Shown: piece by piece, positions 31,054 through 49,774 of the stretch
Numbering within the stretch: the stretch's first letter is position 1
How the letters are laid out: each line of letters opens with the position of its first letter
Sequence record: OM386653.1
DNA length: 64,000 nucleotides
DNA from: Escherichia phage vB_EcoM_ESCO8
Direction: 5' to 3' (one strand)
Program-made: the position numbers and the translations under genes
Notes under the pieces: model-generated
The model's input: only the letters and a program-made list of their open reading frames with translations
The model's database searches: none
What the model was told of the DNA's origin: nothing

Positions 31054-31063
31054 AAGGAGGAAT

Positions 31064-31399
31064 ATGCCTACATTAGTTGTATTACCTGGAGCAACACCAC
31101 AAAGACGCTGGGGAAATTATACACTGGTAGATAGTAAAGATTTTACATTCGATTGGTGTTGTCATTATATTGCAGGTTTTCAATTTTCCAGTGTTGAAAT
31201 ATGGGCTTCCAATGATCCCGAAGCTACCTGGTATGCTTTAACCAGGGCAAGATATGAGGGAGAAGTTACTGTACTACTCACAAAGAGTGTATGGAACGCA
31301 TTAGAGAAGGCTTACATAGAGAATGGTATGGAGAGAGAACACATTGATACAATAAAAGCAATGTGTGATATTGTGGAGGATTTAAATGGCAGCAATTAA
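31064..31399 (+). CDS. Hypothetical protein between nrdA and nrdB
   Basis: ORF track 30989..31399 trimmed to ATG after AAGGAGG RBS. Confidence 0.45.
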   Translation: MPTLVVLPGATPQRRWGNYTLVDSKDFTFDWCCHYIAGFQFSSVEIWASNDPEATWYALTRARYEGEVTVLLTKSVWNALEKAYIENGMEREHIDTIKAMCDIVEDLNGSN

Positions 31400-34534: not shown

Positions 34535-35404
34535 ATGAAAGGTATTATCTTAGCAGGTGGTAGTGGAACAAGACTTTACCCAGTTACTAAAGGGGTTAGT
34601 AAACAACTATTACCAATTTATGATAAGCCTATGATTTATTATCCACTCTCTGTCCTAATGCTTTCTGGAATTAGGGAAATACTAATAATTACAACACCAG
34701 AAGATCAAATTAATTTTGTAAATCTTCTAGGTGATGGTTCTTCTTTTGGTATTTCCCTACAGTATGCAATACAGGATAGCCCAAGAGGTTTAGCAGAAGC
34801 GTTTATTATTGGTGAGAACTTTATTGGTGAAGATTCTGTAGCACTTGTGCTAGGTGATAATTTATTCTTTGGTCAGAGTTTTGGTAGCATTTTAGATTCT
34901 GCTAAAGAACATATTGAAAAGAATGGTGGAGCTAATATTTTTGGGTATCACGTAAATGATCCTGAAAGATTTGGTGTTGTTGAGTTTGATTCTGAAGGTA
35001 CAGTGGTGAGTATTGAAGAAAAACCAAAAGCACCAAAAAGCAACTATGCAATCACAGGCTTGTACTTTTACGATAATTCTGTTGTACAGAAAGCTAAAAG
35101 CGTTAAACCTTCTGCTAGAGGGGAGTTAGAGATTACAGATATAAATGAGATGTACTGGAAAGAAAAGGCTTTACGTGTCTGTAAACTAGGAAGAGGTTTC
35201 ACTTGGCTGGATACAGGAACACATGAAAGTCTTATGGAAGCATCTCAATTTGTTCATGCAATAGAAAAGCAACAAGGTATGAAGGTTGCATGCCTGGAAG
35301 AGATTGCTTTTAAAAATGAATGGATTACTTTAGACTCTGTAAAAAGTTCTGGAGAGGTTTTAAGTAAAACAGACTACGGTAAGTATTTACTTAAATTAAA
35401 ATAA
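34535..35404 (+). CDS. rfbA: Glucose-1-phosphate thymidylyltransferase
   Basis: N-terminal [14 protein letters not shown]. Confidence 0.8.
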
Positions 35405-35416
35405 AGGGGGAATTAA

Positions 35417-35971
35417 ATGATTCAAGCAACAAAAATCGAAGATTTGTTGATCATTCAACCTGACGTTTACGGAGATGAACGTGGTTTTTTCTTAGAAAGT
35501 TTTAATCAGGCTTTATATGATCAATACATAGGTAAACAAAACTTTGTCCAAGATAACCATTCACGTTCTATTCGAGGAGTTCTACGTGGGCTTCATTTTC
35601 AAAAGAAAAACCCACAAGGGAAGTTAGTACGTTGTGTTCGTGGTGAAGTTTATGATGTTGCTGTAGATATTAGGGTTGGTAGTCCAACATTTGGAGAATG
35701 GGTAGGTGTTCTCTTATCTGAAAAGAATAAAACACAATTTTGGATTCCTCCTGGTTTCGCTCATGGCTTTGTTGTGATTAGTGACATTGCTGATTTTGAA
35801 TATAAATGTACAGAATATTACGATCCGACTTCAGAGTGTAGTCTTGCGTGGAATGATCCAGATATCAATATTGATTGGGGTTTTGATTTAATCTTTAATG
35901 ATATTAATTTTAAACCTATCTTGTCACAAAAAGATCAGCAAGCCAAAACACTAAAGGAGATCATATTTTGA
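35417..35971 (+). CDS. rfbC: dTDP-4-dehydrorhamnose 3,5-epimerase
   Basis: Cupin motifs; 184 aa. Confidence 0.7.
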   Translation: MIQATKIEDLLIIQPDVYGDERGFFLESFNQALYDQYIGKQNFVQDNHSRSIRGVLRGLHFQKKNPQGKLVRCVRGEVYDVAVDIRVGSPTFGEWVGVLLSEKNKTQFWIPPGFAHGFVVISDIADFEYKCTEYYDPTSECSLAWNDPDINIDWGFDLIFNDINFKPILSQKDQQAKTLKEIIF

Positions 35972-36798
35972 CAAAATTTTTAATCTTTGGTTCAAAAGGT
36001 CAATTAGGACAGTCTTTGGCAAAAGTTGCGCCCGAAGATGTTATTTTGATTGAAGCAAGTGATGTAGACATTACCAACTTTAAAGATGTTATGAATAGTC
36101 TTGTACAGCATGTGCCTGATGTTGTTGTGAATTGTGCGGCTTACACGGCAGTAGATAAAGCTGAAGAAGATGTTAACACCTGTATAAATGTTAATGCATA
36201 CGGTGCAACAAACATTGCCAAAGCATGTAATGATTTACTGATACAGTTTGTACATATTTCAACAGACTATGTTTTTGATGGGCATGTTGCTGGCACAGAA
36301 GATAGTAAAACAAACCCCTTGAACACCTACGGTTACAGTAAACAATTAGGTGAAACTTTAGTACAAACAGTTTGTCCTACAGCACTTATTATCAGAACAG
36401 CTTCTGTTTATAGTGAATTTGGACATAACTTTTTGAAAACTATGTTGGAACGCTACAACGGTGGTCAAAAAGAATTTAATGTAGTATGTGATCATTTGTC
36501 ATGTCCTACTTATGCACCTGATCTTGCAGAAACAATTTTTAAACTTGTAAAAGATGGTGTAAATAGTAAAGTTGTACACTATGCAGGTGCAGATTATATT
36601 TCTTGGTATGATTTTGCACGAAAGATATTTCTTGTTATAGATTTATCTGTTACAGTTAATCCTGTATCTGCTTCAACCTATAATTCCAAAGCAGTCAGAC
36701 CAGCAACATCTTATTTAAAAACAGATCCTACTTTAAATCCGCGAAGTGTTGATAGCGGTATTGTAAGAACTTTAACTATACTTTTAAACAAGGAGTGA
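35968..36798 (+). CDS. rfbD: dTDP-4-dehydrorhamnose reductase
   Basis: N-terminal IFGSKGQLG Rossmann motif; 276 aa; follows rfbC. Confidence 0.7.
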   Translation: MTKFLIFGSKGQLGQSLAKVAPEDVILIEASDVDITNFKDVMNSLVQHVPDVVVNCAAYTAVDKAEEDVNTCINVNAYGATNIAKACNDLLIQFVHISTDYVFDGHVAGTEDSKTNPLNTYGYSKQLGETLVQTVCPTALIIRTASVYSEFGHNFLKTMLERYNGGQKEFNVVCDHLSCPTYAPDLAETIFKLVKDGVNSKVVHYAGADYISWYDFARKIFLVIDLSVTVNPVSASTYNSKAVRPATSYLKTDPTLNPRSVDSGIVRTLTILLNKE

Positions 36799-37061
36799 AA
36801 ATGAATTTTATTATCTACGGTAAACCAAATTGTCCTTTCTGCACTAACGCTAAGATTCTACTAGAACAGCGTGAACAGGATTTTAAATATCTTACCTTAG
36901 ATGAAGACTATTCTTTAGATCAGATTCAGAATCTGGTTTTAGAGAAAACAGGTGTTCTACCACGCACATTTCCTCAGATTTTTGTGGAAGATGGTGAACA
37001 GCTAACCCACGTAGGAGGTTTTTCTGAACTACGTGAATTCATGGCTCAGATTGCGGAGTAA
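36795..37061 (+). CDS. Glutaredoxin-like protein
   Basis: CPFC active site near N-terminus. Confidence 0.7.
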   Translation: MKMNFIIYGKPNCPFCTNAKILLEQREQDFKYLTLDEDYSLDQIQNLVLEKTGVLPRTFPQIFVEDGEQLTHVGGFSELREFMAQIAE

Positions 37062-37065
37062 CAAT

Positions 37066-37209
37066 ATGAAAGGTAAACAGAAACGTAAGATCTTTTCTCG
37101 TGCTTTGGCAACAGAGCTTAAGTCCCAAACTAAAAAGACGAAGCCTAAACGTGAAATGTCTCCTGAACACCTACTGTTTCAAGAGCTAGATCATGGGGAG
37201 GGCGACTGA
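37066..37209 (+). CDS. Small basic hypothetical protein (47 aa)
   Basis: Hand translation; lysine-rich. Confidence 0.3.
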   Translation: MKGKQKRKIFSRALATELKSQTKKTKPKREMSPEHLLFQELDHGEGD

Positions 37210-37221
37210 TATAAGGAAAAC

Positions 37222-37722
37222 ATGGCTAAAGTAGTTGATGTGTTTGATATGTTACGTTTTGATGAAGGACTAAAGCTAACTGTATATCCTGATACCGAAG
37301 GGTATTGGACAGTTGGTATTGGACACCTTCTGACAAAACTCAAAGATAAAGCAGAAGCTATACGCATTCTTGATAACTTAGTAGGTAGAAAAACCAATGG
37401 AGTTATTACTGAAGCGGAAGCTAGAAAAATCTTTGAGAGTGACGTAAAGAAAGCGATACAACAAATCCATTCAAGTACCATACTATCTCCTATTTACGAT
37501 AAAGTAAGTCCTAATCGTAAAATGGCTATTATTAATATGGTATTTCAAATGGGGTTGAAAGGTGCAGAATCTTTCAAAAATAGCTTGACTTTAGTGAGTA
37601 ATTCATATTATACTCAAGCCTCTATAAATTTACGTAAAAGTAAATGGTATCGCCAAACGCCTAATCGCGCAGAGCGTGTAATTCAGGTACTTAAAACTGG
37701 AACATTAGACGCTTATAACTAA
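37222..37722 (+). CDS. Endolysin, T4-lysozyme-like
   Basis: Close match to T4 lysozyme along its length. Confidence 0.85.
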   Translation: MAKVVDVFDMLRFDEGLKLTVYPDTEGYWTVGIGHLLTKLKDKAEAIRILDNLVGRKTNGVITEAEARKIFESDVKKAIQQIHSSTILSPIYDKVSPNRKMAIINMVFQMGLKGAESFKNSLTLVSNSYYTQASINLRKSKWYRQTPNRAERVIQVLKTGTLDAYN

Positions 37723-37748
37723 ACAAAGGGGCGAAAGCCCCTTTTATA
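37723..37748 (+). terminator. Rho-independent terminator (GGGGC-GAAA-GCCCC + TTTTAT)
   Basis: Stem-loop after endolysin stop. Confidence 0.7.
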
Positions 37749-37760
37749 AGGAGTGCAAAC

Positions 37761-38513
37761 ATGGGAAACAAAACCGCAAAGGCTCGTCGTCAATCAGCAG
37801 CCAATGATGACAAACGTGCCAGTCGTTATGCGGCTAAAGCAGTAGGAAATGATGATTACCGTCTTGATGAATTTACCCCTGTTGGGAATCAAGAAGCTAT
37901 TGTAAGAAGCATGGTTTGGAATGATTTAACCATTGTTAATGCCCCAGCAGGAACAGGAAAAACGACAACAGCACTATGGAAAGCATTGCAAATGCTTAAA
38001 GCTGGTGACTTCAGAAAGTTGATTTTCCTTAAAAACCCGACAGAAGTAGGTGATGATCAAATTGGTTTCTTATCTGGAGATAAGACTGATAAACTAGCAG
38101 CACACTACGAATCAACTAAAAGAATTTTCCAACAGTTTATGACTGCAAATAAATTGGAAAACGATATTGCAAGTGGCAAAATTGAACTTAATATTCCAAA
38201 CTATGCACTAGGTGCTACGTGGGATAACAGCATTATTCTTATTGATGAAGTTCAACTTATGTCACCAAATACAGTAAAACTTCTCCTTGAGCGAGCAGGT
38301 CTTAATACACGTATTGTCATTATGGGTGATGTTAATCAAACATATGCAATTAAACGAAGAGCTAACGGGTTAGGTGATTTGTTAGATCGTGTTGTTCCTA
38401 TTAATGAAGAAGGAGAAAGGGAAGCTATTGTGGATTTTATTGGTTATGTTGAAATGACAACTGCTGATAACCAACGTTCCCGTTTGTCTCAGTTCATCAC
38501 GGAAGTATATTAA
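37761..38513 (+). CDS. phoH: PhoH-like ATPase
   Basis: Walker A NAPAGTGKTT; 250 aa. Confidence 0.7.
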   Translation: MGNKTAKARRQSAANDDKRASRYAAKAVGNDDYRLDEFTPVGNQEAIVRSMVWNDLTIVNAPAGTGKTTTALWKALQMLKAGDFRKLIFLKNPTEVGDDQIGFLSGDKTDKLAAHYESTKRIFQQFMTANKLENDIASGKIELNIPNYALGATWDNSIILIDEVQLMSPNTVKLLLERAGLNTRIVIMGDVNQTYAIKRRANGLGDLLDRVVPINEEGEREAIVDFIGYVEMTTADNQRSRLSQFITEVY

Positions 38514-38549
38514 TAATTACAAGGCAAGGATGCCTGTTATGGAGGTTAA

Positions 38550-39044
38550 ATGACGCTAATTGAGATTGATCGCAATGGTATTGATGAATGCTATCAAGCT
38601 GGCTTAGTTAAGCCGAATGAGTTTAGACAGATTTATATTGACAAGATTGAAAAAGAAATATCTCTTCGTTTAGAGAACATGACAACTTTGCAAAAAGTTC
38701 AGATGTTTTTTAGTTGGTTAAAAGGCGAGGATTGGCTAACTAAATATTACCAGGAATTATCTGATAGTCAAGAAGGCTTGTTTGAGTGTATAATAAATAT
38801 AGCTGGGTCTAATTCAGAATTACTCCTGATTGATGAAGAAGATTCTAAACTTCTTTTTCTTAGCAGTATCTTTCACAAGAAATCTATGTTAGTAAGAAAT
38901 TGCAGTGATTTACTAAATCATCCACTAACAAGAACTAATAAAATTCTTGTGGATAAAGAAACACTAAGAGCTATTGATTACCTCCGTAAATATGTAAGCG
39001 GTGGTAAAGCAGTCCTTAAAACACTACAGGAGGAAGTACAATGA
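38550..39044 (+). CDS. Hypothetical protein
   Basis: ORF track. Confidence 0.45.
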   Translation: MTLIEIDRNGIDECYQAGLVKPNEFRQIYIDKIEKEISLRLENMTTLQKVQMFFSWLKGEDWLTKYYQELSDSQEGLFECIINIAGSNSELLLIDEEDSKLLFLSSIFHKKSMLVRNCSDLLNHPLTRTNKILVDKETLRAIDYLRKYVSGGKAVLKTLQEEVQ

Positions 39045-39694
39045 CAACAATTATTGCAACACGTAACAAAATTCTGTCTGACGGTAAAGTAACAGTAGGT
39101 AGTCGTGTAGACACTTTAAATTTCAAGAAAGTGCGTAAAATTGGGGATTACCTTGTTGGTGGTGCAGGACGTCTGTCTTCTATCTTGACTTTCTTTTCTT
39201 GGTTCGAACAAAACTTACAATGCCAAGCAGCACAAGAGACAATCCCAGGTTTGGTGATCCAGTCAGATCCTGATAAAGAAGATGAAGAGTTTGTGGCATT
39301 GGTTGTTCACCCAGACGGTAAAATTTATATGCACGAGGGTAATAATCCAACACGAGCATATCCTTTAACTGAAGATTATTATGCTGTTGGTAGTGGGGCA
39401 GATTTTGCTTTAGCAGCTTTAGATGCAGGGGCAACTCCAGAAGAAGCGATGGAAGTTGCAAAACTACGAGATGCTTTTTCCGGTGGTGAAACTTTTGTCG
39501 AAGAGATCGAAGAACAACTGGAGCTAACAGCGGAAGATATTCTGAACTTCAGCAAGGAGCAACTAATTAGTATGCTGTTGACTGGTGATCCTGATAGTGA
39601 TGAAGCTGAAAGTATTTTAGCAGAAATGAAAGAATCACAAGAAAAAGTATTGACAGTCTCTGAAAAACTTGATAAAGTGTCCTCTGATAATTAA
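39041..39694 (+). CDS. HslV-like N-terminal-nucleophile peptidase with acidic C-terminal extension
   Basis: MTTIIA (Thr at position 2) and HslV-like block KKVRKIGDYLVGGAGR. Confidence 0.55.
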   Translation: MTTIIATRNKILSDGKVTVGSRVDTLNFKKVRKIGDYLVGGAGRLSSILTFFSWFEQNLQCQAAQETIPGLVIQSDPDKEDEEFVALVVHPDGKIYMHEGNNPTRAYPLTEDYYAVGSGADFALAALDAGATPEEAMEVAKLRDAFSGGETFVEEIEEQLELTAEDILNFSKEQLISMLLTGDPDSDEAESILAEMKESQEKVLTVSEKLDKVSSDN

Positions 39695-39705
39695 TCTAGT
39701 ATAAA

Positions 39706-39727
39706 CCCCCCTTTAAGGGGGTTATTA
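39706..39727 (+). terminator. Stem-loop terminator (CCCCCC-TTTAA-GGGGG + TTATT)
   Basis: GC stem, short T-rich tail. Confidence 0.5.
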
Positions 39728-39736
39728 GGAGGAGAT

Positions 39737-40165
39737 ATGTTACCAGTACCTGTAACCTTTGTAGAAAAAGCCTACTACTCTTTAGAACAAAACTGTAAAA
39801 GAGCTAAAAATTTTATTGAAAGTTTAGCAGAACAGCGTTACACTGTATCTAAAAAGGGATGGTTCAGAACTTCACAATATTTAGTCAACCCTTTCGGAGA
39901 AGTTCGTGTGTTGTATGGCAACACAGAAAATATCTTAGAAAGAATGTTAGAACTAGATAGGATCTCCTCCTGTGATTATCAACTGTTGAAATTTTACGAT
40001 GTGTCAGAAAGCGTTAAAAACTTTCTTGACGACTTATGTAAACGAAAAACAGAAGAAGATACAATACCAGTATCTATGGAAGAATTAACATTCTTAAGAG
40101 ATATTATGGTTTTTGAAGAAGACCCTGAAATCACAAAAGAGGAGATTTTAAGTAGTGGCAAATAA
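39737..40165 (+). CDS. Hypothetical protein
   Basis: ORF track; GGAGG RBS. Confidence 0.5.
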   Translation: MLPVPVTFVEKAYYSLEQNCKRAKNFIESLAEQRYTVSKKGWFRTSQYLVNPFGEVRVLYGNTENILERMLELDRISSCDYQLLKFYDVSESVKNFLDDLCKRKTEEDTIPVSMEELTFLRDIMVFEEDPEITKEEILSSGK

Positions 40166-40664
40166 GTATGATCGTCCACCAACTGATTACTATCCTACTC
40201 CACAAAAATGTATAAATGCATTATTTAGTGTAATAGATTTTAATAACCTTAAAGAAGAAGGTTTTATTTTTGCAGAACCGTGTAAAGGCGCTGCTGCTGC
40301 AATTTATCAACATTTTCCAGAAGGATCAGAATATTGTGAGTTAGAAGAAGGGAAAGATTATTTTAACCACGAATGGCATACTAAGCCGGATATTATAATC
40401 ACAAATCCCCCATTCAAACTTGCACTTGAGTTCTTGCAAAAGAGCTTAAAAGAAGCAGACGTTTGCATATACTTGTTGCGTCTTGGGTTCCTAGAGTCTA
40501 TTAAACGAAGGGAATTCCATAAACAGAATCCACCAACAAACTTGATTGTTCTTTCTGAACGACCATCTTTTGTTGCAGGTGGTACTGATAAGACAGCATA
40601 TGCTTGGTACGTCTACGACCCAAAAAACAGGCTGGGTTTAACTCAACCTTTCTATTTTGTTTAA
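40155..40664 (+). CDS. Small N6-adenine DNA methyltransferase (probable)
   Basis: Catalytic motif IITNPPF; ~169 aa. Confidence 0.55.
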   Translation: MANKYDRPPTDYYPTPQKCINALFSVIDFNNLKEEGFIFAEPCKGAAAAIYQHFPEGSEYCELEEGKDYFNHEWHTKPDIIITNPPFKLALEFLQKSLKEADVCIYLLRLGFLESIKRREFHKQNPPTNLIVLSERPSFVAGGTDKTAYAWYVYDPKNRLGLTQPFYFV

Positions 40665-40677
40665 GAGGAGCATTTTT

Positions 40678-40908
40678 ATGACCGAGAAATTTACTGTTAC
40701 TATGGAACTCACCTTTGATGAAGAAGATTTTGATCTTCATGTATCAACTAAAGCAGATAACATTCACACAACACAGAGTGTTGCAATCGCTATGTTCTTT
40801 AAACAAGCTATTGCAAAACAAGCTGAAGTATGTGCTGGTTTAGCTGTAGAGTATGCAGAAGTTGTCAAGGTTCTTGAAAGTGCTCGTAACGGCGATTGGG
40901 ATGAATAA
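40678..40908 (+). CDS. Hypothetical protein
   Basis: ORF track 40657..40908 trimmed to ATG after AAGAGGAG RBS. Confidence 0.45.
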   Translation: MTEKFTVTMELTFDEEDFDLHVSTKADNIHTTQSVAIAMFFKQAIAKQAEVCAGLAVEYAEVVKVLESARNGDWDE

Positions 40909-41111
40909 TGGCATACAATTACTATCTGGTATATTTTAACGAAACTAAGAAAAAAGACACAGGAACTAATGTTTATGCGGAATCCGAAGAACACGCAAAA
41001 GCTATTGGTTCCGTGCTTCTTTCTAGAATAGCAGGTGAAGAAATTCCTGTAGAGGCTATTTTTGCAGAAGTTGACCCTGGTATTCAAGAGGATGATATTA
41101 CCACTACTTAA
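40908..41111 (+). CDS. Hypothetical protein
   Basis: ORF track. Confidence 0.4.
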   Translation: MAYNYYLVYFNETKKKDTGTNVYAESEEHAKAIGSVLLSRIAGEEIPVEAIFAEVDPGIQEDDITTT

Positions 41112-41114
41112 CTG

Positions 41115-41143
41115 TTGACTTTAACATTAAGGTAGTGCATACT
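41115..41143 (+). promoter_or_regulatory. Sigma70-like promoter candidate (TTGACT-N17-CATACT)
   Basis: Hexamers upstream of recombinase gene. Confidence 0.3.
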
Positions 41144-41168
41144 TCCTGTAACAGAACAGGAGGGTATT

Positions 41169-41831
41169 ATGAAGTTTGTACTGTATCATCGACTTTCTAA
41201 GAAGAAACAACAAGGCAACCAGTATGGTATAGAATCACAGGAAGCAGATATTCAACGCTTCCTGGATTCACAAGAAAATTATACTATTGTAGGTAGCTTT
41301 GCAGAGTTTTATTCGGGTAAAGGCGATTGGAAGCAACGTAGAGAGCTTGTAAAAGCTGTTAATCTTTGTAAAGAAACAGGTGCTACACTTGTTGTTGCTA
41401 AGGTTGACCGTCTTGGACGTAACACAGCCTCTGTTGCAACCTTATTAGAGATGATTAATGTACGAATAGCAACTATGCCCTCCGCTGAAAATATGATAAT
41501 AAATATTTTAGCAGTTCTGGCAGAAGAAGAGGCTCGTGCAATATCTGATCGTGTTAAGAAGAGCCTTAAGGTAGCAAAAGCGAAGGGAACGCTTCTTGGT
41601 GCAGCAAACCCTAAATACAAAAGAACAGATTATACGAAAACGGAAGAAGCAAAACGCTCAAAAGAGTTTGCGCTTTCTTTAAAAGATTCTTTAGTTGCAT
41701 ACAGAGCTTGTAAAACGCCATATATGACGATTGCAAAGCATCTGAATGAATCAGGAAAGAGAACTATTCGTGGGAGTTTGTTCGATGCCAAAGCGGTACA
41801 ACGTCTTTGTGCAAAATTGAATATTAAATAA
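41169..41831 (+). CDS. Small serine recombinase (resolvase/invertase family)
   Basis: N-terminal YHRLS; VAKVDRLGRN motif; 220 aa. Confidence 0.6.
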   Translation: MKFVLYHRLSKKKQQGNQYGIESQEADIQRFLDSQENYTIVGSFAEFYSGKGDWKQRRELVKAVNLCKETGATLVVAKVDRLGRNTASVATLLEMINVRIATMPSAENMIINILAVLAEEEARAISDRVKKSLKVAKAKGTLLGAANPKYKRTDYTKTEEAKRSKEFALSLKDSLVAYRACKTPYMTIAKHLNESGKRTIRGSLFDAKAVQRLCAKLNIK

Positions 41832-41840
41832 GGAGGAAAC

Positions 41841-42044
41841 ATGGTAGTTCAATCTTTTGAGGAGACTGTTAAAAAACAATTCCTATCGAAGCGAGCGATG
41901 GTTGAATTTTTGCATTTTCTCGAAGTAGATAGGGTACTTATTGAGACTACACCAGATGGTAACTGGCAAGTCTCGTATATTGCCACCAGGCATATCGTAG
42001 ACAGTACGAAAGAAGAAAGTTCGGAAGTTACGGTTGCTAGTTAA
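41841..42044 (+). CDS. Hypothetical protein
   Basis: ORF track. Confidence 0.4.
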   Translation: MVVQSFEETVKKQFLSKRAMVEFLHFLEVDRVLIETTPDGNWQVSYIATRHIVDSTKEESSEVTVAS

Positions 42045-42055
42045 AGGAGTTAAAT

Positions 42056-42628
42056 ATGCGTTTAGCTTTTAACGGGAAGATAAGCACAGCAAACATATTA
42101 TCAGCCATAGGATTATTAGGTAAAAAATTCACACCTTTCAGTTTACCTGTTTGTGTAGATTTTGATCATGTATTTGATATTAATAATCCTTCACGTTGTA
42201 TCGCCAGAAGTAATATTGATAACCCAAGTGAAAATCTGTTTTATATTACTAAACCATCCCAGGCAATTTTGAATCAATGGGAAGCAGGTCTGATTAAACC
42301 AGGTAAATATTTTGCATTACTACCTTGTAAATCATTGGCTATAGAGGACAGTCTAAACTATGCAAACAATCTTGTTGTTACAGCATTCATTGTCTCAGAA
42401 AAAGAAGAAACTGCGGCACTTGCAAACACTGTTAAATCTTTGTATGATGCTTTGGGTGTTACTTACACTACCTTCGTTTGTGAAGATATTCCACATTGCG
42501 TTGAATTCGTGGTGAATGGTGTAACTGTATGTCGTGTAGAAACAACTCAAGACGAAGACGTTTTTATTACTGTAGCCGATGTAATATCTGAACCTGTGTT
42601 TAGCTACGCAGTTTCATTAACACATTAA
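42056..42628 (+). CDS. Hypothetical protein
   Basis: ORF track. Confidence 0.45.
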   Translation: MRLAFNGKISTANILSAIGLLGKKFTPFSLPVCVDFDHVFDINNPSRCIARSNIDNPSENLFYITKPSQAILNQWEAGLIKPGKYFALLPCKSLAIEDSLNYANNLVVTAFIVSEKEETAALANTVKSLYDALGVTYTTFVCEDIPHCVEFVVNGVTVCRVETTQDEDVFITVADVISEPVFSYAVSLTH

Positions 42629-42638
42629 GGAGAAGGGG

Positions 42639-42965
42639 ATGAAAATAACGACAGAACAGGCTTTAATAGACAAAGGAAGGGAAATCTTAGAAAGTCATTT
42701 GGAGGATATTCAAAGGACTCCAGGGTATCTCGGCTGGCGTATACAAGAAGCCGTCGATTTTCTACCCCGTAAAAATAAAGAGATTGAAGTAAGATCTCTA
42801 TTCCTCCTTGTTAAAGTAGATGGTGACGCTATATACAAAGATGTAGCGTCTCACATTGAACAAATAGAAGAAAAAGCCTACAAAGAATTTGCAGATCTTG
42901 TTGTAGAACATAATATAGAAGGTAAAGTTAATATCTTTATACTTATGGATTTTGAGGAGAGTTGA
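42639..42965 (+). CDS. Hypothetical protein
   Basis: ORF track. Confidence 0.45.
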   Translation: MKITTEQALIDKGREILESHLEDIQRTPGYLGWRIQEAVDFLPRKNKEIEVRSLFLLVKVDGDAIYKDVASHIEQIEEKAYKEFADLVVEHNIEGKVNIFILMDFEES

Positions 42966-43708
42966 TGCTAGTATATCAAGAAATTAGTGTAAAAGATGAT
43001 CAAGACCTGTTTATTATTGGTGATTTACATGGTTGCTTTGATTTGTACCAGAAAGGTGTTAATACTTTAGGTATCCGAGATCAAGATGTTGTTGTATCTT
43101 TAGGAGATCTTACAGATCGCGGCAAGCAGAATTTTCGTTGTGTTGTTGAATTCACCAGAAAGCTAAATCGTTATGGTATTCGTGGAAATCATGAAGATAT
43201 GATGATTAAAGGGTTGCTAGAAGGTGATAGACGATATTACGAATGTTGGTTTCAGAACGGAGGCCATACAGTTCTAGACGAGTGTGGAGAAGAGGGTGCA
43301 ACTGCTCTTGCTTTGATGCTAGAAGATTTACCTGTTGTACTTGTTGTCAATTATCGTAATATGAAACTAGGCTTTATTCACGGTGGGTATCCTTCAGTTT
43401 TGGAACATTTACCAGTGACAGAAGTTTTGCCATTTTGTTTGAATATGAATAAAGAGCAAGTTTCTCGATTCACAGAATCTTTAATGTGGGATCGTGATAT
43501 GATAGATTGCGCACTTGAAGGGATTCTTCTTCCTAGAGTTTCAGGAGTAGATTATGTATTTCACGGGCATTCTTATGTTCCTAAACCTGTGATTAGCAGT
43601 AATAGGGTATATATGGACACAGGATCTTGCTTCAATGGTAATTTAACCTTTGCATATTTTGATGATTCAAATACGTTACAATTTTATTCTACTTTAGAGG
43701 AGGACTAA
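42962..43708 (+). CDS. Ser/Thr protein phosphatase, PP-lambda-like
   Basis: Motifs GDLHG, GDLTDRG, GNHE. Confidence 0.7.
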   Translation: MMLVYQEISVKDDQDLFIIGDLHGCFDLYQKGVNTLGIRDQDVVVSLGDLTDRGKQNFRCVVEFTRKLNRYGIRGNHEDMMIKGLLEGDRRYYECWFQNGGHTVLDECGEEGATALALMLEDLPVVLVVNYRNMKLGFIHGGYPSVLEHLPVTEVLPFCLNMNKEQVSRFTESLMWDRDMIDCALEGILLPRVSGVDYVFHGHSYVPKPVISSNRVYMDTGSCFNGNLTFAYFDDSNTLQFYSTLEED

Positions 43709-44028
43709 TGTATAAAATCACAATTAAAGAAACAGTAGGAGAACTTACGAAAGAAACTACTATTGAGACGGAAGATGTTGAGTTAGTCAAAGAGCTTTTA
43801 TTTCCAAAACCAGAAATAAAAGATAATGATGAACAGTTGGATGAAGATAATGAGACAGCAAGGGATAAATGGAAGAAACAACTAGCGGAGATTTGGAAAA
43901 AGCCTGAAGTAACTCCTCCATTTGATCCTCGTAGACCTTATAATCCTTGGGAAATTGGAAGCCCTTGGTTTACGTACCCTATCACTCCAATTGTTAATCC
44001 AATTGTTACTCCCAATATTACTTGTTAA
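43708..44028 (+). CDS. Hypothetical protein
   Basis: ORF track. Confidence 0.45.
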   Translation: MYKITIKETVGELTKETTIETEDVELVKELLFPKPEIKDNDEQLDEDNETARDKWKKQLAEIWKKPEVTPPFDPRRPYNPWEIGSPWFTYPITPIVNPIVTPNITC

Positions 44029-44038
44029 GGAGAAAACC

Positions 44039-44617
44039 ATGAGCGATTTATTCTACACAGGTGTTGGTAGCAGAGATATTACAGACGAAGAATGGGATAC
44101 TATGGTATCTGTTGCAAAATGGCTATCTACATGGTTCATTTTGCGATCTGGTAAAGCAGAAGGTGCAGATTCCGCATTTGAATGCGGGGTATATGATAGT
44201 GGGAACAATACAAAGAAAGAAATATACATCCCTTGGCTCTCGTTTAAAGGTAATGAAATAGAGGGAGAGGTTATTGTTCTTGACAGACCAGATAGTGTAA
44301 ACTATGCTTTAACCTTGCAATATGCAAAAGAATTGCATCCAGCTTGGGACAGATTATCTCAAGGTGCTAAAAAATTACATCAAAGAAATATCCACCAAGT
44401 TCTTGGAAGAGATCTTGAGAATCCAAAACCATCTTGTTTTCTTTTAGCTTGTGCAAATACAGATAAAAATGGAGATCCTTTAGGTGGTACAAGAACAGCT
44501 TGGATGTTGGCTAAAAAGTTTAATGTTCCTTGTTTTAATATTCGAGGTAAAAGTAAAAAACAAATTTTCGAATTTATTAAGCCTATTTTAGAGGAGAATG
44601 GTCTTGTCCAGAAATAA
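44039..44617 (+). CDS. DprA/Smf-like Rossmann-fold protein (putative)
   Basis: ORF track 43922..44617 trimmed to ATG after AAGGAGAA; motifs GVGSRD and SGKAEGADSAFE. Confidence 0.4.
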   Translation: MSDLFYTGVGSRDITDEEWDTMVSVAKWLSTWFILRSGKAEGADSAFECGVYDSGNNTKKEIYIPWLSFKGNEIEGEVIVLDRPDSVNYALTLQYAKELHPAWDRLSQGAKKLHQRNIHQVLGRDLENPKPSCFLLACANTDKNGDPLGGTRTAWMLAKKFNVPCFNIRGKSKKQIFEFIKPILEENGLVQK

Positions 44618-45122
44618 TATAAGCGTCATTAAAGATAGCTTTATTGATGTAACAAACGATATTGTACCTACAATACAATATATAGTTGAGGCACAAGGTT
44701 TAAACTTTATACGTGATAAAGTTAAGATTGTTTTTCATAACACTCCAGGTTTTGTAACAGTGGGTTCAACAAAAACGCCGTGCTCTACAGATCTGATTAC
44801 TTTAGACAAAAACTTAACACAAGAAGAAGTAGAAATTCTTAACCTCTATTGGTTAGGTTTTAAAAGATACGAGGATACAGCTTTATCCAGAATGTCAACT
44901 ATTTTAGCTAATATTCTGGTTCGGAAAATTTCTAAAATATGGGATGAAGAAAACCCAGATGAAATAGTTTTACACTTTGCTAAACCGGAAGACGGGGCAT
45001 ATGATATAGACACATCTGAAATGGCTTATGGATTTATTATTTCTGGTAATGTATTACAGATGGAATCTTTATTGTATGTTGAGACAGTAAAACACAATAA
45101 CAACTACGAGGAGGTTGTATGA
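44598..45122 (+). CDS. Hypothetical protein
   Basis: ORF track. Confidence 0.4.
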   Translation: MVLSRNNISVIKDSFIDVTNDIVPTIQYIVEAQGLNFIRDKVKIVFHNTPGFVTVGSTKTPCSTDLITLDKNLTQEEVEILNLYWLGFKRYEDTALSRMSTILANILVRKISKIWDEENPDEIVLHFAKPEDGAYDIDTSEMAYGFIISGNVLQMESLLYVETVKHNNNYEEVV

Positions 45123-45376
45123 AAGGTTTAGAGTTTAACTTTGTAGATGCGTGGGAAGGATGGGATGAACTAGGAGTAGGGGATTTATGTTTTTATGATG
45201 TTACCTTGAAGGAAGAATACAAACATCTAGCTCCTAGTGAAGATTGCGATGTGATTCTATCTATTCTGTTAAGTCAGTCTATAGTGCAATTCGATTTCTT
45301 AAAAGGTAGTGAATGTATTGAAAGTAAAGCATTCCGTTTAGAAGTTTCTCTTGGTGAAGAAGTTCCTGTAGAATAA
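45119..45376 (+). CDS. Hypothetical protein
   Basis: ORF track. Confidence 0.4.
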   Translation: MKGLEFNFVDAWEGWDELGVGDLCFYDVTLKEEYKHLAPSEDCDVILSILLSQSIVQFDFLKGSECIESKAFRLEVSLGEEVPVE

Positions 45377-45379
45377 TAT

Positions 45380-45404
45380 AAACCCGCTTCGGCGGGTTTT
45401 TTGT
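45380..45404 (+). terminator. Rho-independent terminator (ACCCGC-TTCG-GCGGGT + TTTTTG)
   Basis: Canonical stem-loop and T-run. Confidence 0.75.
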
Positions 45405-45432
45405 TGACAACACTAGTTTTTTCGAATAAACT
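45404..45432 (+). promoter_or_regulatory. Sigma70-like promoter (TTGACA-N17-TAAACT)
   Basis: Directly after terminator, upstream of 45459. Confidence 0.45.
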
Positions 45433-45458
45433 ACAGAAAAACAGAAGAGGAGTTTAGC

Positions 45459-45869
45459 ATGTATTATAGTGATTATTTTGTAAACCCAACAAAAGAACAA
45501 CTTCAATCAGCAGTGGATAAGATGCAGATTGTAGTTAAAGAATGTGAGAAAATAAGAAAACAACTACAAGAGGAGACTGTTGTTGTTAATAAATGGTTTG
45601 GTCTTAAGAAGAAAGTTGTTAGTAAACACAATATCATCCTTGAAAAAGCAAAAACGACAGGAACTAGTTACGCCTTACAAGCCTTGTTACTAAATTACAT
45701 TGATATAGAACAACATTCTCTTCTGCACTGTTGGCTTAACAGCCCTGGTATTGAGGATCTCTTGTTCTGGTTATCGTGTGAATCTGTACTTTTAAATGAG
45801 AATGAGGCTTACCGTTTAAACTTCTGCCTCAAGGCAGAATTACCAGCTAGTGTTAAGGAGAAGAAGTAA
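45459..45869 (+). CDS. Hypothetical protein
   Basis: ORF track; GAGGAG RBS. Confidence 0.5.
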   Translation: MYYSDYFVNPTKEQLQSAVDKMQIVVKECEKIRKQLQEETVVVNKWFGLKKKVVSKHNIILEKAKTTGTSYALQALLLNYIDIEQHSLLHCWLNSPGIEDLLFWLSCESVLLNENEAYRLNFCLKAELPASVKEKK

Positions 45870-45871
45870 TA

Positions 45872-46861
45872 ATGAAAGTTTTAAGTCTTTTTGATGGTAT
45901 GTCAGGAGGAATGCTTGCGCTAAAAAGTGCAGGTATTGAAGTAGATACATATTACGCTTCAGAATTAGACAAATTTGCCGTAGCTGAAAGCCAAGCAAAT
46001 TTTCCAGATATTATTCAGTTAGGTGATGTTACAAAATGGAGAGAATGGGATATCCCGTGGGGAGAAATTGATCTTTTGTTAGGTGGTAGTCCGTGTCAAG
46101 GCTTCTCTTCTTCTGGTAAGGGTTTGAACTTTCAAGATCCGCGATCTAAGCTATTCTTCGAATATGTTGAAATTCTTGAACATATTAAAAAGTTTAATCC
46201 TAATGTTAAGTTCATGCTTGAAAACGTTAAGATGAAAGCGGAGTGGGAAAACGTGATCACAAGTTACTTAGGTGTTGATCCCGTATTCATTAACTCCGCA
46301 GATTTCACGGCACAGAATAGACAACGTTTATACTGGTGCAACTGGGAAATAAAACCCTGGGAGATTACCAATGAAGTGTTGCAAGATATCATTGAAGATG
46401 ATAGTATTGTAGACAGAGATAAGGCTTATTGCATAGATGCAAATTATGCCAAAGGTGGTAATATAGAACAGTATTTTGAAAAGAGTCGCAGACAACTGGT
46501 TTTTTATCCGGCAGCAATATATGGGCGTAGAATTAATGAAAATGGCAAACGTAGTACATCTAAAACTGATCGTTTGGTACATTGTTTGGAAGTTCAGGAC
46601 AGTGGAAAAACTCGTTGCCTCACAACTGTGCCTAAAGACGTACTATTAGCTTATATTCCACCTGGAAGATATCTAGATGCCTTTGAAAAATTAAGTGAAG
46701 GCGTACATTATAGAAAGTTAACGGTTAAAGAGTGTTGCCGCTTGCAAGGTGTGCCAGATGACTACTTTAAAGTGAGTAGTAACACACAAGCATATAAGAT
46801 GTTAGGCAATGGTTGGACTATACCTGTCATTGCACATATTCTTAAATGTATGGAGGAATAA
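45872..46861 (+). CDS. DNA (cytosine-5)-methyltransferase
   Basis: Motif I FDGMSGG, motif IV GGSPCQGFS, motif VI ENV. Confidence 0.75.
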   Translation: MKVLSLFDGMSGGMLALKSAGIEVDTYYASELDKFAVAESQANFPDIIQLGDVTKWREWDIPWGEIDLLLGGSPCQGFSSSGKGLNFQDPRSKLFFEYVEILEHIKKFNPNVKFMLENVKMKAEWENVITSYLGVDPVFINSADFTAQNRQRLYWCNWEIKPWEITNEVLQDIIEDDSIVDRDKAYCIDANYAKGGNIEQYFEKSRRQLVFYPAAIYGRRINENGKRSTSKTDRLVHCLEVQDSGKTRCLTTVPKDVLLAYIPPGRYLDAFEKLSEGVHYRKLTVKECCRLQGVPDDYFKVSSNTQAYKMLGNGWTIPVIAHILKCMEE

Positions 46862-49367: not shown

Positions 49368-49406
49368 ACAAAAGCCCCTAGAAGCGATTCTAGGGGCTTT
49401 ATTTTA
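49368..49406. terminator. Bidirectional terminator at convergent junction (GCCCCTAG-loop-CTAGGGGC)
   Basis: 8-bp perfect stem flanked by A-run and T-run. Confidence 0.7.
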
Positions 49407-49740: not shown

Positions 49741-49769
49741 CATACAAGAAAACCCGCCGGAGCGGGTTT
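49741..49769 (-). terminator. Rho-independent terminator on minus strand (AACCCGC-CGGA-GCGGGTT)
   Basis: Stem-loop followed by T-run on minus strand. Confidence 0.6.
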
Positions 49770-49774
49770 AGCTG

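What the first reader, a model, noticed from the sequence alone, without database searches (positions are those of the whole stretch)
41169..41831. Small serine recombinase in an otherwise lytic-looking genome
A 220-aa protein with resolvase-type catalytic region (YHRLS, DRLGRN) and no integrase-sized C-terminal domain. In virulent phages such enzymes usually invert a DNA segment (for example tail-fibre switching) or resolve replication multimers. No flanking inverted-repeat target was identified in this window.
Basis: partly seen in the sequence, partly recalled or inferred. Interest (0 to 1): 0.5.

Follow-up and report, generated by a model that had tools for sequence, protein, structure and literature searches.

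The report
Orphan serine recombinase of phi92-like phages
This is a real, apparently active small DNA-cutting-and-rejoining enzyme (a serine recombinase, the phi92 gp053 gene) carried by a strictly lytic E. coli phage; public records call it a "DNA invertase", but I found no invertible DNA segment for it to flip, so its target and job remain unknown.

Summary
The ORF at 41169-41831 (+) is real. It encodes a 220-aa serine recombinase with all catalytic residues in place (Ser10, Arg8, Arg57, Asp80-Arg81, Arg84, Glu121, Arg128). The window is a phi92-like Justusliebigvirus; the protein is ≥99% identical in 55 deposited relatives (100% in phi92 gp053, annotated "DNA invertase"). Its C-terminal ~60 aa form a cut-down version of the "recombinase domain" of large serine recombinases, not a Hin-type HTH, and there is no zinc-ribbon or coiled-coil domain. 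It has its own sigma-70-type promoter, and a 5' hairpin would bury the ribosome-binding site in read-through transcripts. It is under strong purifying selection (dN/dS ~0.08). The promoter-plus-gene unit occupies three different intergenic slots in three Stephanstirmvirinae lineages. The invertase reading is not supported. The whole genome has no inverted-repeat pair other than terminator hairpins. The 55 relatives show no recombinase-type inversion; both tail-fibre clusters are always collinear. 80 distant homolog loci have no adjacent inverted repeats, and their neighbours are recombination/repair genes, never tail fibres. No phi92-like DNA occurs in 5,426 complete E. coli genomes, so it is not an integrase. 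Best reading: an early-expressed accessory recombinase of phage DNA metabolism with an unidentified target. The gene is already annotated; interest is modest.

The parts
41169..41831 (+). Coding sequence of the 220-aa serine recombinase (ortholog of phi92 gp053), stop codon included
   Evidence: ORF. PF00239 E 8.4e-22. PHROG 125. ≥99% identical (most 100%) in 55 Justusliebigvirus records. dN/dS ~0.08 against Klebsiella phage FKP3.
41178..41591 (+). Catalytic domain plus E-helix (residues 4-141), including nucleophile Ser10 (41196-41198) and the DRLGRN motif (residues 80-85)
   Evidence: Pfam match. Alignment to gamma-delta resolvase and Hin. Invariant columns. Model secondary structure E2-9, H19-34, E39-47, H58-70, E73-76, H86-95, E98-100, H108-138. 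Foldseek hits to Sin, gamma-delta and Bxb1.
41652..41816 (+). C-terminal four-helix DNA-binding domain (residues 162-216) with the motif IAKHLNESGKRTIRGSLFDAKAVQRL. It is a cut-down 'recombinase domain' of the large-serine-recombinase type and follows a low-confidence linker (residues 139-161).
   Evidence: 19 of 26 family members hit Pfam PF07508 'Recombinase', best E 3.3e-7; the window protein itself is below threshold. PHROG 95 'integrase' aligns residues 1-213 to positions 88-307 of 651. Best PDB fold match is Bxb1 integrase over 248 columns. NCBIfam CcrB aligns residues 4-212 to positions 10-225 of 542, sub-threshold.
41115..41143 (+). Sigma-70-type promoter TTGACT-17 nt-CATACT in the 57-bp spacer upstream of the gene (inferred)
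   Evidence: Consensus scan. Such matches are not above chance in this region (27 found against 25.4 expected). However, a TTGACA-type -35 box, a 17-nt spacer and a -10 box occupy the same position upstream of the gene in FKP3, ESCO5, Vibrio phage VPMCC14 and Shewanella phage 1/40.
41132..41170 (+). RNA hairpin (core CUUCCUGU-N6-ACAGGAGG) that buries the Shine-Dalgarno sequence in transcripts reading through from upstream. Its left arm lies upstream of the predicted start of the gene's own transcript (inferred insulation device).
   Evidence: RNA 41125-41180 folds at -15.2 kcal/mol, z -2.76, with 2 of 200 shuffles folding as well. RNA from 41150 is unstructured at -0.7 kcal/mol. Analogous lineage-specific dyads overlap the promoter or ribosome-binding site in FKP3, VPMCC14 and Shewanella 1/40.

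Best explanation
The gene encodes a catalytically competent, free-standing ('orphan') small serine recombinase. It has a resolvase-type catalytic domain and E-helix, followed by a minimal large-serine-recombinase-type DNA-binding domain. It lacks the zinc-ribbon and coiled-coil modules that give large integrases their attP x attB directionality. It is transcribed early by host RNA polymerase from its own promoter and is shielded from read-through expression. It belongs functionally to the phage's DNA replication/recombination gene set, not to host-range or lysogeny functions. It does not run a Gin/Hin-type inversion switch. The most likely mechanism is inferred, not shown: a dimer binds a short, roughly symmetric site that occurs once per genome copy. 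Two dimers then synapse two copies of that site on replicating or concatemeric phage DNA. They carry out the standard serine-recombinase reaction (double-strand cleavage through Ser10 phosphoserine links, 180-degree subunit rotation, religation). The outcome would be a resolution or fusion event, interconverting circles, multimers or concatemers, rather than an inversion. Shown here: enzyme identity, intact active site, domain make-up, purifying selection, cassette structure and relocation, absence of inversion. Inferred: promoter use, timing, and resolution-type chemistry on phage DNA. Unknown: the site.
For: The active site is intact and conserved down to 31% identity, and the fold is confirmed. 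Purifying selection is strong: pN 0.165 against saturated pS 0.716, dN/dS ~0.08, similar to the adjacent methyltransferase at 0.05 and tighter than gp051 at 0.20. The gene is present and full-length in all 55 Justusliebigvirus records and in most Phapecoctavirus records. The C-terminus is of the large-serine-recombinase recombinase-domain type. A promoter is conserved by position in five lineages, and a hairpin sequesters the Shine-Dalgarno sequence only in read-through RNA. The genomic context is DNA metabolism: phi92 neighbours include methyltransferases, a DprA-like protein, PhoH and NrdAB, and Shewanella phage 1/40 has ligase ... recombinase - small ORF - DprA-like. Among 122 proteins flanking 60+ distant homologs, the recurrent annotated families are endonuclease VII (6), RusA (4), RecE-like (2), DprA (1) and RNA ligase (1), with no tail fibres and only one integrase. 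Against inversion: no non-terminator inverted-repeat pair in the genome, no recombinase-type inversion in 55 genomes, and no excess of inverted repeats next to 80 homolog genes (median 12 nt against 12 nt in shuffles).
Against: No recombination site has been identified, so the central step (what it recombines) is unproven. A virulent phage with 343-bp direct terminal repeats has no obvious need for multimer resolution. The gene is interrupted by frameshifts in the deposited genome of the viable phage Schickermooser, and related subfamilies such as rV5 and PVP-SE1 were not among the tblastn hits; whatever it does is therefore dispensable. Its position differs among three lineages, which would also fit a selfish or 'moron' cassette. 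Neighbour tallies come from partly related contigs and a crude ORF caller.
Confidence: 0.4

Rival explanations
1. Selfish or 'moron' cassette. The promoter-plus-gene unit is an autonomous passenger that persists and occasionally relocates, either through its own activity or through illegitimate recombination. It makes little or no contribution to phage growth.
For: The cassette occupies three different intergenic slots: between gp054 and gp052 in Justusliebigvirus, in the early small-gene region in Phapecoctavirus, and after the phosphatase/DprA-like block in KP13-16. There is a precise filled-versus-empty site in which only the promoter and the 663-bp gene differ. The cassette has its own promoter and is insulated from neighbours. 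A frameshifted copy occurs in Schickermooser. The distribution is patchy at deep level.
Against: Position and presence are fixed within each genus (55 of 55 records), with no presence/absence polymorphism of the kind seen for homing endonuclease genes. There are no high-identity copies in unrelated phage backbones (identity bands >=99%, 60-80% and <60% only). Divergence between genera (57% aa) matches that of the old neighbours (56-67%), so the gene has co-diverged with the genome. Purifying selection on catalytic residues is strong, although a selfish element would also retain these. No terminal repeats or target duplications flank the cassette.
Confidence: 0.25
2. The recombinase acts on DNA that is not the phage's own, such as the host chromosome, resident plasmids or prophages, or co-infecting phages. 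It would rearrange or break that DNA to the phage's advantage.
For: No target is detectable in the phage genome. The gene is expressed early from a host-type promoter. The gene is accessory and lineage-variable in position.
Against: This is purely an argument from absence. No host site is known. The broader family's neighbours are phage recombination/repair genes rather than known host-takeover genes. Homologs occur in phages of very different hosts (Vibrio, Shewanella, Cellulophaga), which would each need their own host target.
Confidence: 0.12
3. Trans-acting DNA invertase, as the public annotation says. It would flip one or more segments bounded by short or degenerate sites that sequence searches miss, comparable to Bacteroides Mpi acting on distant promoters.
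For: Best PHROG is 'DNA invertase'. There is a sub-threshold full-length match to the Mpi master-invertase model (E 3.3e-8). One 0.9-kb two-gene block exists in both orientations among relatives: about 19 of 55 records have the PD211-type orientation.
Against: That block has no inverted repeats at its junctions (best 9 of 11 nt) and is accompanied by 425 bp of novel DNA. It is 93.2% identical between orientations while its flanks are 98%, so the two alleles are old and not an active switch. The rest of the ~148-kb genome, including both tail-fibre clusters, is collinear in all 55 relatives at a resolution of roughly 50 bp. There are no repeated short inverted-repeat families other than terminators. 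There is no Hin-type HTH. The Mpi score is 33.5 bits against a 272-bit cutoff. There is no inverted-repeat enrichment next to 80 homologs.
Confidence: 0.1
4. Domesticated DNA-binding regulator, for example an autorepressor or early-gene repressor. It would use the recombinase fold without catalysing recombination.
For: Lineage-specific dyads overlap the gene's own promoter in several lineages. This is reminiscent of resolvase autoregulation at res (from my own knowledge).
Against: The full catalytic constellation, including the Ser10 nucleophile, is conserved over deep divergence. A pure DNA-binding role would not require that. The dyads are equally well explained as terminators or Shine-Dalgarno-sequestering RNA hairpins.
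Confidence: 0.05
5. Cryptic integrase, or resolvase of a plasmid-prophage state. The phage would occasionally lysogenise or persist as a plasmid, and the enzyme would serve that state.
For: PHROG 95 'integrase' and CcrB/large-serine-recombinase similarity. Software that flags 'recombinase' genes could call such phages temperate.
Against: The protein is 220 aa with no zinc-ribbon or coiled-coil domains. No repressor or partition genes lie nearby. A 10-kb segment around the gene has no match in 5,426 complete E. coli genomes, including their plasmids. The phi92 group is known as virulent (from my own knowledge).
Confidence: 0.03

Closest known systems
Hin/Gin/Cin/Pin DNA invertases (Salmonella Hin, Mu Gin, P1 Cin, e14 Pin)
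   Same: They are small (~190 aa) serine recombinases with an N-terminal catalytic domain followed by a short C-terminal DNA-binding domain. The same catalytic residues are present. Two of them are phage-encoded. The public annotation and the best PHROG family name are 'DNA invertase'.
   Different: The C-terminal domain here is not a Hin-type HTH; it is related to the recombinase domain of large serine recombinases. The gene is not adjacent to tail-fibre genes or to any segment flanked by inverted repeats, and no active inversion is seen in 55 genomes. Identity to Hin is only 26%. Gin and Cin are in temperate phages (from my own knowledge).
Tn3 / gamma-delta resolvase and Sin
   Same: These give the best sequence-level PDB matches: Sin/Bin3 at 1.2e-5, Tn3 at 2.3e-5 and gamma-delta at 7e-5. 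The catalytic fold and E-helix are the same. The gene is preceded by a regulatory spacer with dyad symmetry, loosely recalling res upstream of tnpR.
   Different: The upstream spacer is only 57 bp, too short for a three-subsite res of ~115 bp (size from my own knowledge). There is no transposase or plasmid context. The C-terminal domain differs. A loop between strand 4 and the E-helix is shorter than in gamma-delta and Hin.
Large serine recombinases (Bxb1, PhiC31, TP901-1 integrases; CcrB)
   Same: Bxb1 is the best full-length structural match (E 4.7e-8, 248 aligned columns). The N-terminal motif Y-x-R-x-S-(x)n-S-Q and the C-terminal IAxxLNxxGxxTxxGxxF/W motif are typical of this group (from my own knowledge). 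Most family members hit PF07508. PHROG 95 and NCBIfam CcrB align across both domains.
   Different: The protein is less than half the size. Only the first part of the recombinase domain is present, and there is no zinc-ribbon domain or coiled coil. The machinery for attP/attB selection and RDF control is therefore missing. There is no prophage state.
Bacteroides Mpi 'master' invertase and Bacillus YneB resolvase-like proteins
   Same: They have a similar length (~200-210 aa) and align nearly end to end (Mpi positions 5-197 of 203, YneB positions 2-190 of 211). They are orphan genes that act, or are presumed to act, in trans.
   Different: Scores are far below the family cutoffs (33.5 against 272 bits; 29.8 against 175 bits). 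No family of short inverted repeats flanking promoters exists in the phage genome.
P1 Cre/loxP (functional analogy only; Cre is a tyrosine recombinase)
   Same: Cre is a phage-encoded site-specific recombinase with a single short site per genome. It cyclises terminally redundant DNA and resolves multimers (from my own knowledge). The single-site logic would explain why no repeat pair is found here.
   Different: The enzyme family is unrelated. P1 is temperate with a plasmid prophage. No lox-like site has been demonstrated here.
IS607-family TnpA serine transposases
   Same: They are small serine recombinases that move a compact element without terminal inverted repeats or target duplications (from my own knowledge). 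This matches the clean, repeat-free cassette boundaries seen. The ISC1926 TnpA catalytic domain is among the fold hits.
   Different: The domain order is reversed: IS607 TnpA has an N-terminal MerR-like HTH and a C-terminal catalytic domain. No multiple copies or recent transfers are seen.

Membership tests
Serine recombinase superfamily (Pfam PF00239) | Resolvase-type catalytic domain scoring above the curated threshold | tested here: met
   78.3 bits against a 23.3-bit cutoff, residues 4-141. Fold confirmed by the AF2 model and Foldseek.
Serine recombinase superfamily (Pfam PF00239) | Nucleophilic serine and the conserved Arg/Asp/Glu active-site residues (gamma-delta R8, S10, D36, R45, D67, R68, R71, E118, R125) | tested here: met
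   R8, S10, E46 (conservative D-to-E replacement), R57, D80, R81, R84, E121 and R128 align to those positions. Most are invariant or nearly invariant in 26 homologs.
Hin/Gin/Cin/Pin DNA invertases | Two crossover sites in inverted orientation bounding an invertible segment, normally next to the invertase gene | tested here: not met
   No inverted-repeat pair above chance in the window. In the whole genome of a 99%-identical relative, the only inverted-repeat pairs are terminator hairpins. Degenerate sites shorter than about 14 nt cannot be excluded.
Hin/Gin/Cin/Pin DNA invertases | Both orientations of the segment found among genomes or populations | tested here: not met
   The genome-wide sweep against 55 relatives is collinear. 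The single flipped block has no inverted repeats and has diverged alleles. Within-lysate heterogeneity could not be tested.
Hin/Gin/Cin/Pin DNA invertases | C-terminal Hin-type helix-turn-helix domain (HTH_7) | tested here: not met
   No HTH_7 hit in the protein or among the listed families for 26 relatives. 19 of 26 hit PF07508 instead.
Hin/Gin/Cin/Pin DNA invertases | Fis-dependent recombinational enhancer inside the 5' part of the gene | not testable with these tools
   Fis sites are too degenerate to call from sequence. A biochemical assay is needed.
Tn3/gamma-delta-type resolvases | Multi-subsite res region adjacent to the gene, and association with a transposon or plasmid | tested here: not met
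   The upstream spacer is 57 bp and holds a promoter and one hairpin. The neighbours are phage genes. No direct-repeat site family was found.
Large serine recombinases (integrases / CcrAB / TnpX) | Recombinase domain (PF07508) after the E-helix | tested here: inconclusive
   19 of 26 family members match PF07508 (best E 3.3e-7), but the window protein itself has no hit at E<=1. Structural and profile alignments to Bxb1, PHROG 95 and CcrB span this region. The domain is truncated to about 60 aa.
Large serine recombinases (integrases / CcrAB / TnpX) | Zinc-ribbon domain with embedded coiled coil; total size above ~400 aa | tested here: not met
   The protein ends at residue 220, and the stop codon is conserved in relatives of 205-250 aa.
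Large serine recombinases (integrases / CcrAB / TnpX) | Integration into a host attB (prophage copies exist) | tested here: not met
   No megablast match of window 36000-46000 in 5,426 complete E. coli genomes, 20,395 replicons.
IS607-like serine transposases | N-terminal MerR-type HTH preceding a C-terminal catalytic domain | tested here: not met
   The catalytic domain starts at residue 4, and the DNA-binding domain is C-terminal.
Mpi master invertase (NCBIfam NF009949) / YneB (NF049883) | Score above the curated equivalog cutoff | tested here: not met
   33.5 against 272 bits, and 29.8 against 175 bits.

The most novel reading that the evidence does not exclude
The enzyme is the serine-recombinase counterpart of Cre/lox for a virulent phage with direct terminal repeats. 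Its single target would be the 35-bp hairpin-palindrome at window 62172-62206 (ATTAGCCGCCTATG-TGTCCGG-CATAGGCTGCTAAT). This element lies ~360 bp from the terminal repeat in a 1.5-kb non-coding region. It is conserved in all Stephanstirmvirinae, with changes mirrored on both arms between genera, as expected if a dimeric binding protein and its site co-evolve. Recombination there early in infection would interconvert linear, circular and concatemeric genome forms. That would be a previously undescribed step in the replication of a lytic myovirus.
Probability: 0.06. Interest if true: 0.7.

Novelty: new member of a known kind. Interest (0 to 1): 0.3.

Why it matters
There are three modest reasons.

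1. Annotation. The label 'DNA invertase' has been propagated across about 150 phi92-like and phAPEC8-like genomes, yet no evidence in the genomes supports it. 'Orphan serine recombinase' would be more accurate.

2. Phage therapy. phi92-like phages are used or proposed as therapeutic phages. A 'recombinase' or 'integrase-like' hit can wrongly flag them as temperate. The domain analysis and the absence of any prophage copy argue that this gene is not a lysogeny marker.

3. Biology. A ~220-aa serine recombinase with a minimal large-serine-recombinase-type DNA-binding domain is widespread in viral contigs (at least 591 loci). It sits preferentially among recombination/repair genes and is under strong constraint, yet has no known target. 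Finding that target would define a new role for site-specific recombination in lytic phage DNA metabolism. It might also yield a very compact recombinase for engineering. None of this is established, and a specialist would not find the gene's mere presence surprising.

Tried and rejected
1. Inverted repeats in the window: only chance-level pairs and terminator hairpins.

2. Whole-genome self-BLAST of OZ035770.1: the repeat families turned out to be tRNA-cluster direct repeats and three shared terminator stems (AAGGGGCTTTCGCCCCTT, AAACCCGCTCCGGCGGGTTT, AAGCCCCCGAAGGGGCTT).

3. 'Places per record' as an inversion detector. It worked for the conserved parts of the genome. It failed for alia 75-100 kb (tRNA cluster, termini, hypervariable early genes), because of internal repeats and mosaicism. 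I replaced it there with direct blastn of three genomes.

4. The 0.9-kb flipped block in PD211-type phages. I considered it a candidate invertible segment and rejected it: no junction inverted repeats, novel flanking DNA, and 93% block identity against 98% flank identity.

5. The apparent split in phage 92CQ at window ~8638 is a tRNA-Ser tandem duplication.

6. A recombinase site inside the 343-bp terminal repeat: only Fur-box-like dyads are found there.

7. A conserved site in the gene's upstream spacer: the promoter is conserved by position, but the dyads are lineage-specific and better explained as terminators or Shine-Dalgarno-sequestering hairpins.

8. Cassette end repeats or target duplications at the filled/empty site: none.

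9. Flanking small proteins (gp055, gp054, gp052, gp051, gp050, ESCO5 gp034) as possible partner or directionality factors: no Pfam domains. In addition, gp052 stays at the empty site when the recombinase is elsewhere.

10. Literature. No functional or transcriptomic data on this gene were found. One paper states that no recombinase was predicted in ESCO5, although a homolog lies at 10017-10688 of that genome (PMC10269720).

11. Rfam and tRNA scans of the terminal region: nothing.

Full report
**Observation.** It runs from 41169 to 41831 on the + strand, starts with ATG, encodes 220 aa, and is preceded by AGGAGG. YHRLS is residues 6-10 and DRLGRN is residues 80-85. Pfam's Resolvase catalytic domain matches residues 4-141 (E 8.4e-22, 78 bits against a 23-bit cutoff). 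PHROGs places the protein in family 125 'DNA invertase' (1.3e-31) and, more weakly, in family 95 'integrase'.

**Identity of the genome.** The window is a phi92-like E. coli myovirus (Justusliebigvirus, Stephanstirmvirinae). 55 deposited genomes match the 5 kb around the gene at 95-99% identity. The protein is ≥99% identical in all 55 (100% in most, including phi92), and the gene is phi92 gp053, annotated 'DNA invertase / putative recombinase, resolvase family'. phi92 has 343-bp direct terminal repeats. The window's assembly runs across them: the repeat is at about 61468-61810.

**The protein.**
- Aligned with gamma-delta resolvase and Hin, the catalytic positions are all occupied: Y6, R8, S10 (nucleophile), Q24, E46 (a conservative replacement of D36), S49-G50, R57, D80-R81-L82-G83-R84, E121 and R128. 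In 26 homologs down to 31% identity, most of these are invariant or nearly invariant.
- An AlphaFold2 model built on that alignment is confident (mean pLDDT 87.4). It shows the resolvase beta-alpha core, a long E-helix (residues 108-138), a floppy linker (139-161) and a four-helix C-terminal domain.
- The best match among solved structures is the large serine recombinase Bxb1 over 248 columns, followed by Sin, gamma-delta, TP901-1 and PhiC31. By sequence alone, the best PDB hits are Sin/Bin3, Tn3 and gamma-delta resolvases.
- The C-terminal domain carries the motif IAxxLNxxGxxTxxGxxF/WxxxxVxRL. From my own knowledge, this motif is typical of the 'recombinase domain' of large serine recombinases. 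Consistent with that, 19 of 26 family members hit Pfam PF07508, although the window protein itself stays below threshold.
- NCBIfam gives only sub-threshold, near-full-length matches to CcrB, the Mpi master invertase and YneB.
- In summary, the enzyme has a resolvase-type catalytic domain plus a cut-down large-serine-recombinase-type DNA-binding domain. It has no zinc ribbon, no coiled coil and no Hin-type HTH.

**Expression signals.**
- The 57-bp spacer upstream holds TTGACT-17-CATACT (41115-41143). On its own this is not above chance (27 promoter-like sites found against 25.4 expected in the region). However, a TTGACA-type promoter occupies the same place upstream of the ortholog in FKP3, ESCO5, Vibrio phage VPMCC14 and Shewanella phage 1/40.
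- RNA reading through from upstream folds into a -15.2 kcal/mol hairpin (z -2.8) that buries the Shine-Dalgarno sequence. RNA starting at the predicted start site (~41150) is unstructured.
- Other lineages have different dyads in the same place, some of them terminator-like.
- I infer an insulated, self-promoted, early-expressed gene. This has not been shown experimentally.

**Is it an invertase?**
- *Repeats.* The window contains no inverted-repeat pair above chance. A self-comparison of a complete, 99%-identical genome (OZ035770.1) found only tRNA-cluster direct repeats and three families of shared terminator hairpins.
- *Comparative sweep.* I swept the whole ~148-kb genome in seven megablast queries against the 55 sequenced relatives. 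An actively flipping segment should be assembled in either orientation across so many isolates. The regions covered were window 1-25 kb, 25-50 kb, 39-64 kb, the structural and first tail-fibre module, the second tail-fibre/tailspike cluster with polymerase and primase, and the helicase/anaerobic reductase region. Each region is collinear in each record apart from the flipped block described below, and split matches otherwise end at record boundaries. One exception, phage 92CQ, is a tRNA-Ser duplication. Tail-fibre variation is always segment replacement and never inversion.
- *The mosaic tRNA/terminus region* could not be judged this way, so I compared it directly in three genomes.
- *The one orientation polymorphism.* That comparison revealed a 0.9-kb two-gene block, outside the window, that is flipped in PD211-type phages, about 19 of 55 records. 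It has no inverted repeats at either junction (best 9 of 11 nt). One breakpoint is at a stop codon, and 425 bp of novel DNA accompany it. The block is 93.2% identical between orientations while its flanks are 98% identical. These are old, separately evolving alleles produced by mosaic rearrangement, not a switch.
- *Distant homologs.* In 80 homolog loci from viral metagenomes, the best inverted repeat within 3 kb of the gene is no longer than in shuffled sequence (median 12 nt in both).
- *Conclusion.* The invertase annotation has no support.

**Is it an integrase or plasmid-prophage resolvase?** The protein lacks the domains that large integrases need. In addition, 10 kb around the gene has no match in 5,426 complete E. 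coli genomes with their plasmids. This reading is close to excluded.

**Evolutionary behaviour.**
- In Klebsiella phage FKP3 (78% identity) the neighbours are the same as in the window.
- In Phapecoctavirus (57% identity) the backbone is collinear with Justusliebigvirus, but the recombinase lies ~15 kb away, on the opposite strand relative to that backbone, among early small genes.
- At the Justusliebigvirus position, the Phapecoctavirus has an 'empty site': the gp054 stop codon, 45 bp containing a terminator hairpin, then the gp052 start. The Justusliebigvirus 'filled site' adds exactly the promoter and the 663-bp gene, without flanking repeats.
- Klebsiella phage KP13-16 (51% identity) has the intact gene in a third slot.
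- In Schickermooser the gene is broken by frameshifts. This is either a pseudogene or sequencing error.
- The gene is nevertheless fixed in position and intact in all 55 Justusliebigvirus genomes.
- It is under strong purifying selection: dN/dS ~0.08 against FKP3, compared with 0.05 for the neighbouring methyltransferase and 0.20 for gp051.
- It is as diverged between genera (57% aa) as its former neighbours (56-67%). It has therefore co-diverged with the phage and relocated only rarely.

**Context of the wider family.** At least 591 viral contigs encode relatives of 205-250 aa. Among 122 proteins flanking about 60 of them, the recurrent annotated families are endonuclease VII (6), RusA (4), RecE-like exonuclease (2), DprA-like (1) and RNA ligase (1). 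There are no tail fibres, one regulator and one integrase. In Shewanella phage 1/40 the order is ligase ... recombinase, small ORF, DprA-like. In phi92 the gene sits in the leftward cluster with methyltransferases, DprA-like, PhoH, ribonucleotide reductase and ligase. The family therefore belongs to replication/recombination modules.

**Candidate target (speculative).**
- A single-site recombinase would need one palindromic site per genome rather than a repeat pair. A palindrome scan found one notable non-terminator element: ATTAGCCGCCTATG-TGTCCGG-CATAGGCTGCTAAT at window 62172-62206.
- It lies ~360 bp from the terminal repeat, in a 1.5-kb stretch with no genes, tRNAs or Rfam matches.
- It is identical in all Justusliebigvirus genomes examined. 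In Phapecoctavirus, three stem positions have changed on both arms, while the centre, the outer hexamers and one internal mismatch are unchanged.
- It folds strongly as a hairpin (-30.1 kcal/mol, z -6.1).
- It occurs in 132 Stephanstirmvirinae records, always 300-700 bp from a physical end.
- This pattern fits a structured hairpin (packaging signal, origin or RNase III site) at least as well as a co-evolving protein site. Co-occurrence with the recombinase is uninformative, because both are subfamily-wide. I list it as a lead only.

**Verdict.** The suggested function (inversion, for example tail-fibre switching) is not supported, and integration is practically excluded. The best-supported reading is an early, self-promoted accessory recombinase of phage DNA metabolism that acts on an unidentified short site, probably in a resolution/fusion mode (confidence 0.4). 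The main rival is a largely selfish relocating cassette (0.25). The gene is already present and annotated in public phi92-group genomes. What is new here is the negative evidence against the 'invertase' label, the domain reassignment and the cassette behaviour. Interest: 0.3.

Noticed in passing
window 62172-62206 (second palindrome at 62122-62148): A 35-bp palindrome (14-nt arms, 7-nt centre, no T-run) lies in the non-coding region ~360 bp from the terminal repeat. It is conserved across Justusliebigvirus and Phapecoctavirus, with three compensatory arm changes, an unchanged centre and a conserved internal mismatch. It forms a strong hairpin (-30 kcal/mol, z -6). In 132 records it is always 300-700 bp from a genome end. 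It is probably a packaging, origin or RNA-processing element.
   Followed up: partly
window ~61468-61810 (terminal-repeat region; phi92 1-343): The direct terminal repeat carries two sequences close to the E. coli Fur-box consensus as I remember it: phi92 75-95 AAATGATAATCATTATCAG, and 258-291 GAATGATAATGCAAATGATAATTATTCTCATTG. This hints at iron-responsive control or Fur binding at the genome ends.
   Followed up: no
outside the window: OZ035770.1 74599-75474; OM401812.1 = L013 36103-36973: A 0.9-kb block of two small genes plus the 5' module of a third, at a divergent-transcription point, occurs in opposite orientations in two haplotype groups of Justusliebigvirus (about 19 of 55 records have the PD211 type). 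In one orientation, an N-terminal module is fused to a C-terminal module as a single 184-aa ORF. In the other, the two modules are separate genes. There are no junction inverted repeats, and the alleles have diverged (93% against 98% in the flanks).
   Followed up: yes
window 45380-45399 and 49749-49770, also ~24660, ~37755, ~49060 and 49371-49400: A few nearly identical GC-rich terminator hairpins are reused at many sites around the genome, on both strands (AAACCCGCTTCGGCGGGTTT; AAGGGGCTTTCGCCCCTT; AAAGCCCCTAGAAGCGATTCTAGGGGCTTT). They account for all the 'inverted repeats' seen by BLAST.
   Followed up: partly
window 19468-20301, 30991-31368 and 59526-61247: These are indel differences from phi92: 834 bp here against 208 bp in phi92; the phi92 HNH endonuclease gp074 region (726 bp) is replaced by 378 bp; and the stretch next to the terminal repeat differs (1.7 kb against 0.6 kb). 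phi92 gp011 (3920-4549) is absent from the window.
   Followed up: no
public records MG065639.1, MG065645.1, MG065656.1, MG065689.1: Four records named 'Campylobacter phage' with host C. jejuni are 98% identical to E. coli phi92-like phages across the regions searched. They are probably mislabelled hosts or contaminants.
   Followed up: no
L006 (ESCO5, NC_047776.2 10017-10688); L017 (Schickermooser): The ESCO5 homolog is annotated 'hypothetical protein'. A paper on that phage states that no recombinase gene was predicted (PMC10269720). Other Phapecoctavirus records label it 'methionine ABC transporter ATP-binding protein'. In Schickermooser the gene is split by frameshifts, several of them in homopolymer runs.
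   Followed up: partly
window 35000-38000 (phi92 gp064-gp067 equivalents): This lytic phage carries a complete dTDP-rhamnose biosynthesis set (RmlA/B/C/D-like). It also carries an HslV-like peptidase, Sir2-like, PhoH-like and DprA-like genes in the same leftward cluster as the recombinase.
   Followed up: no
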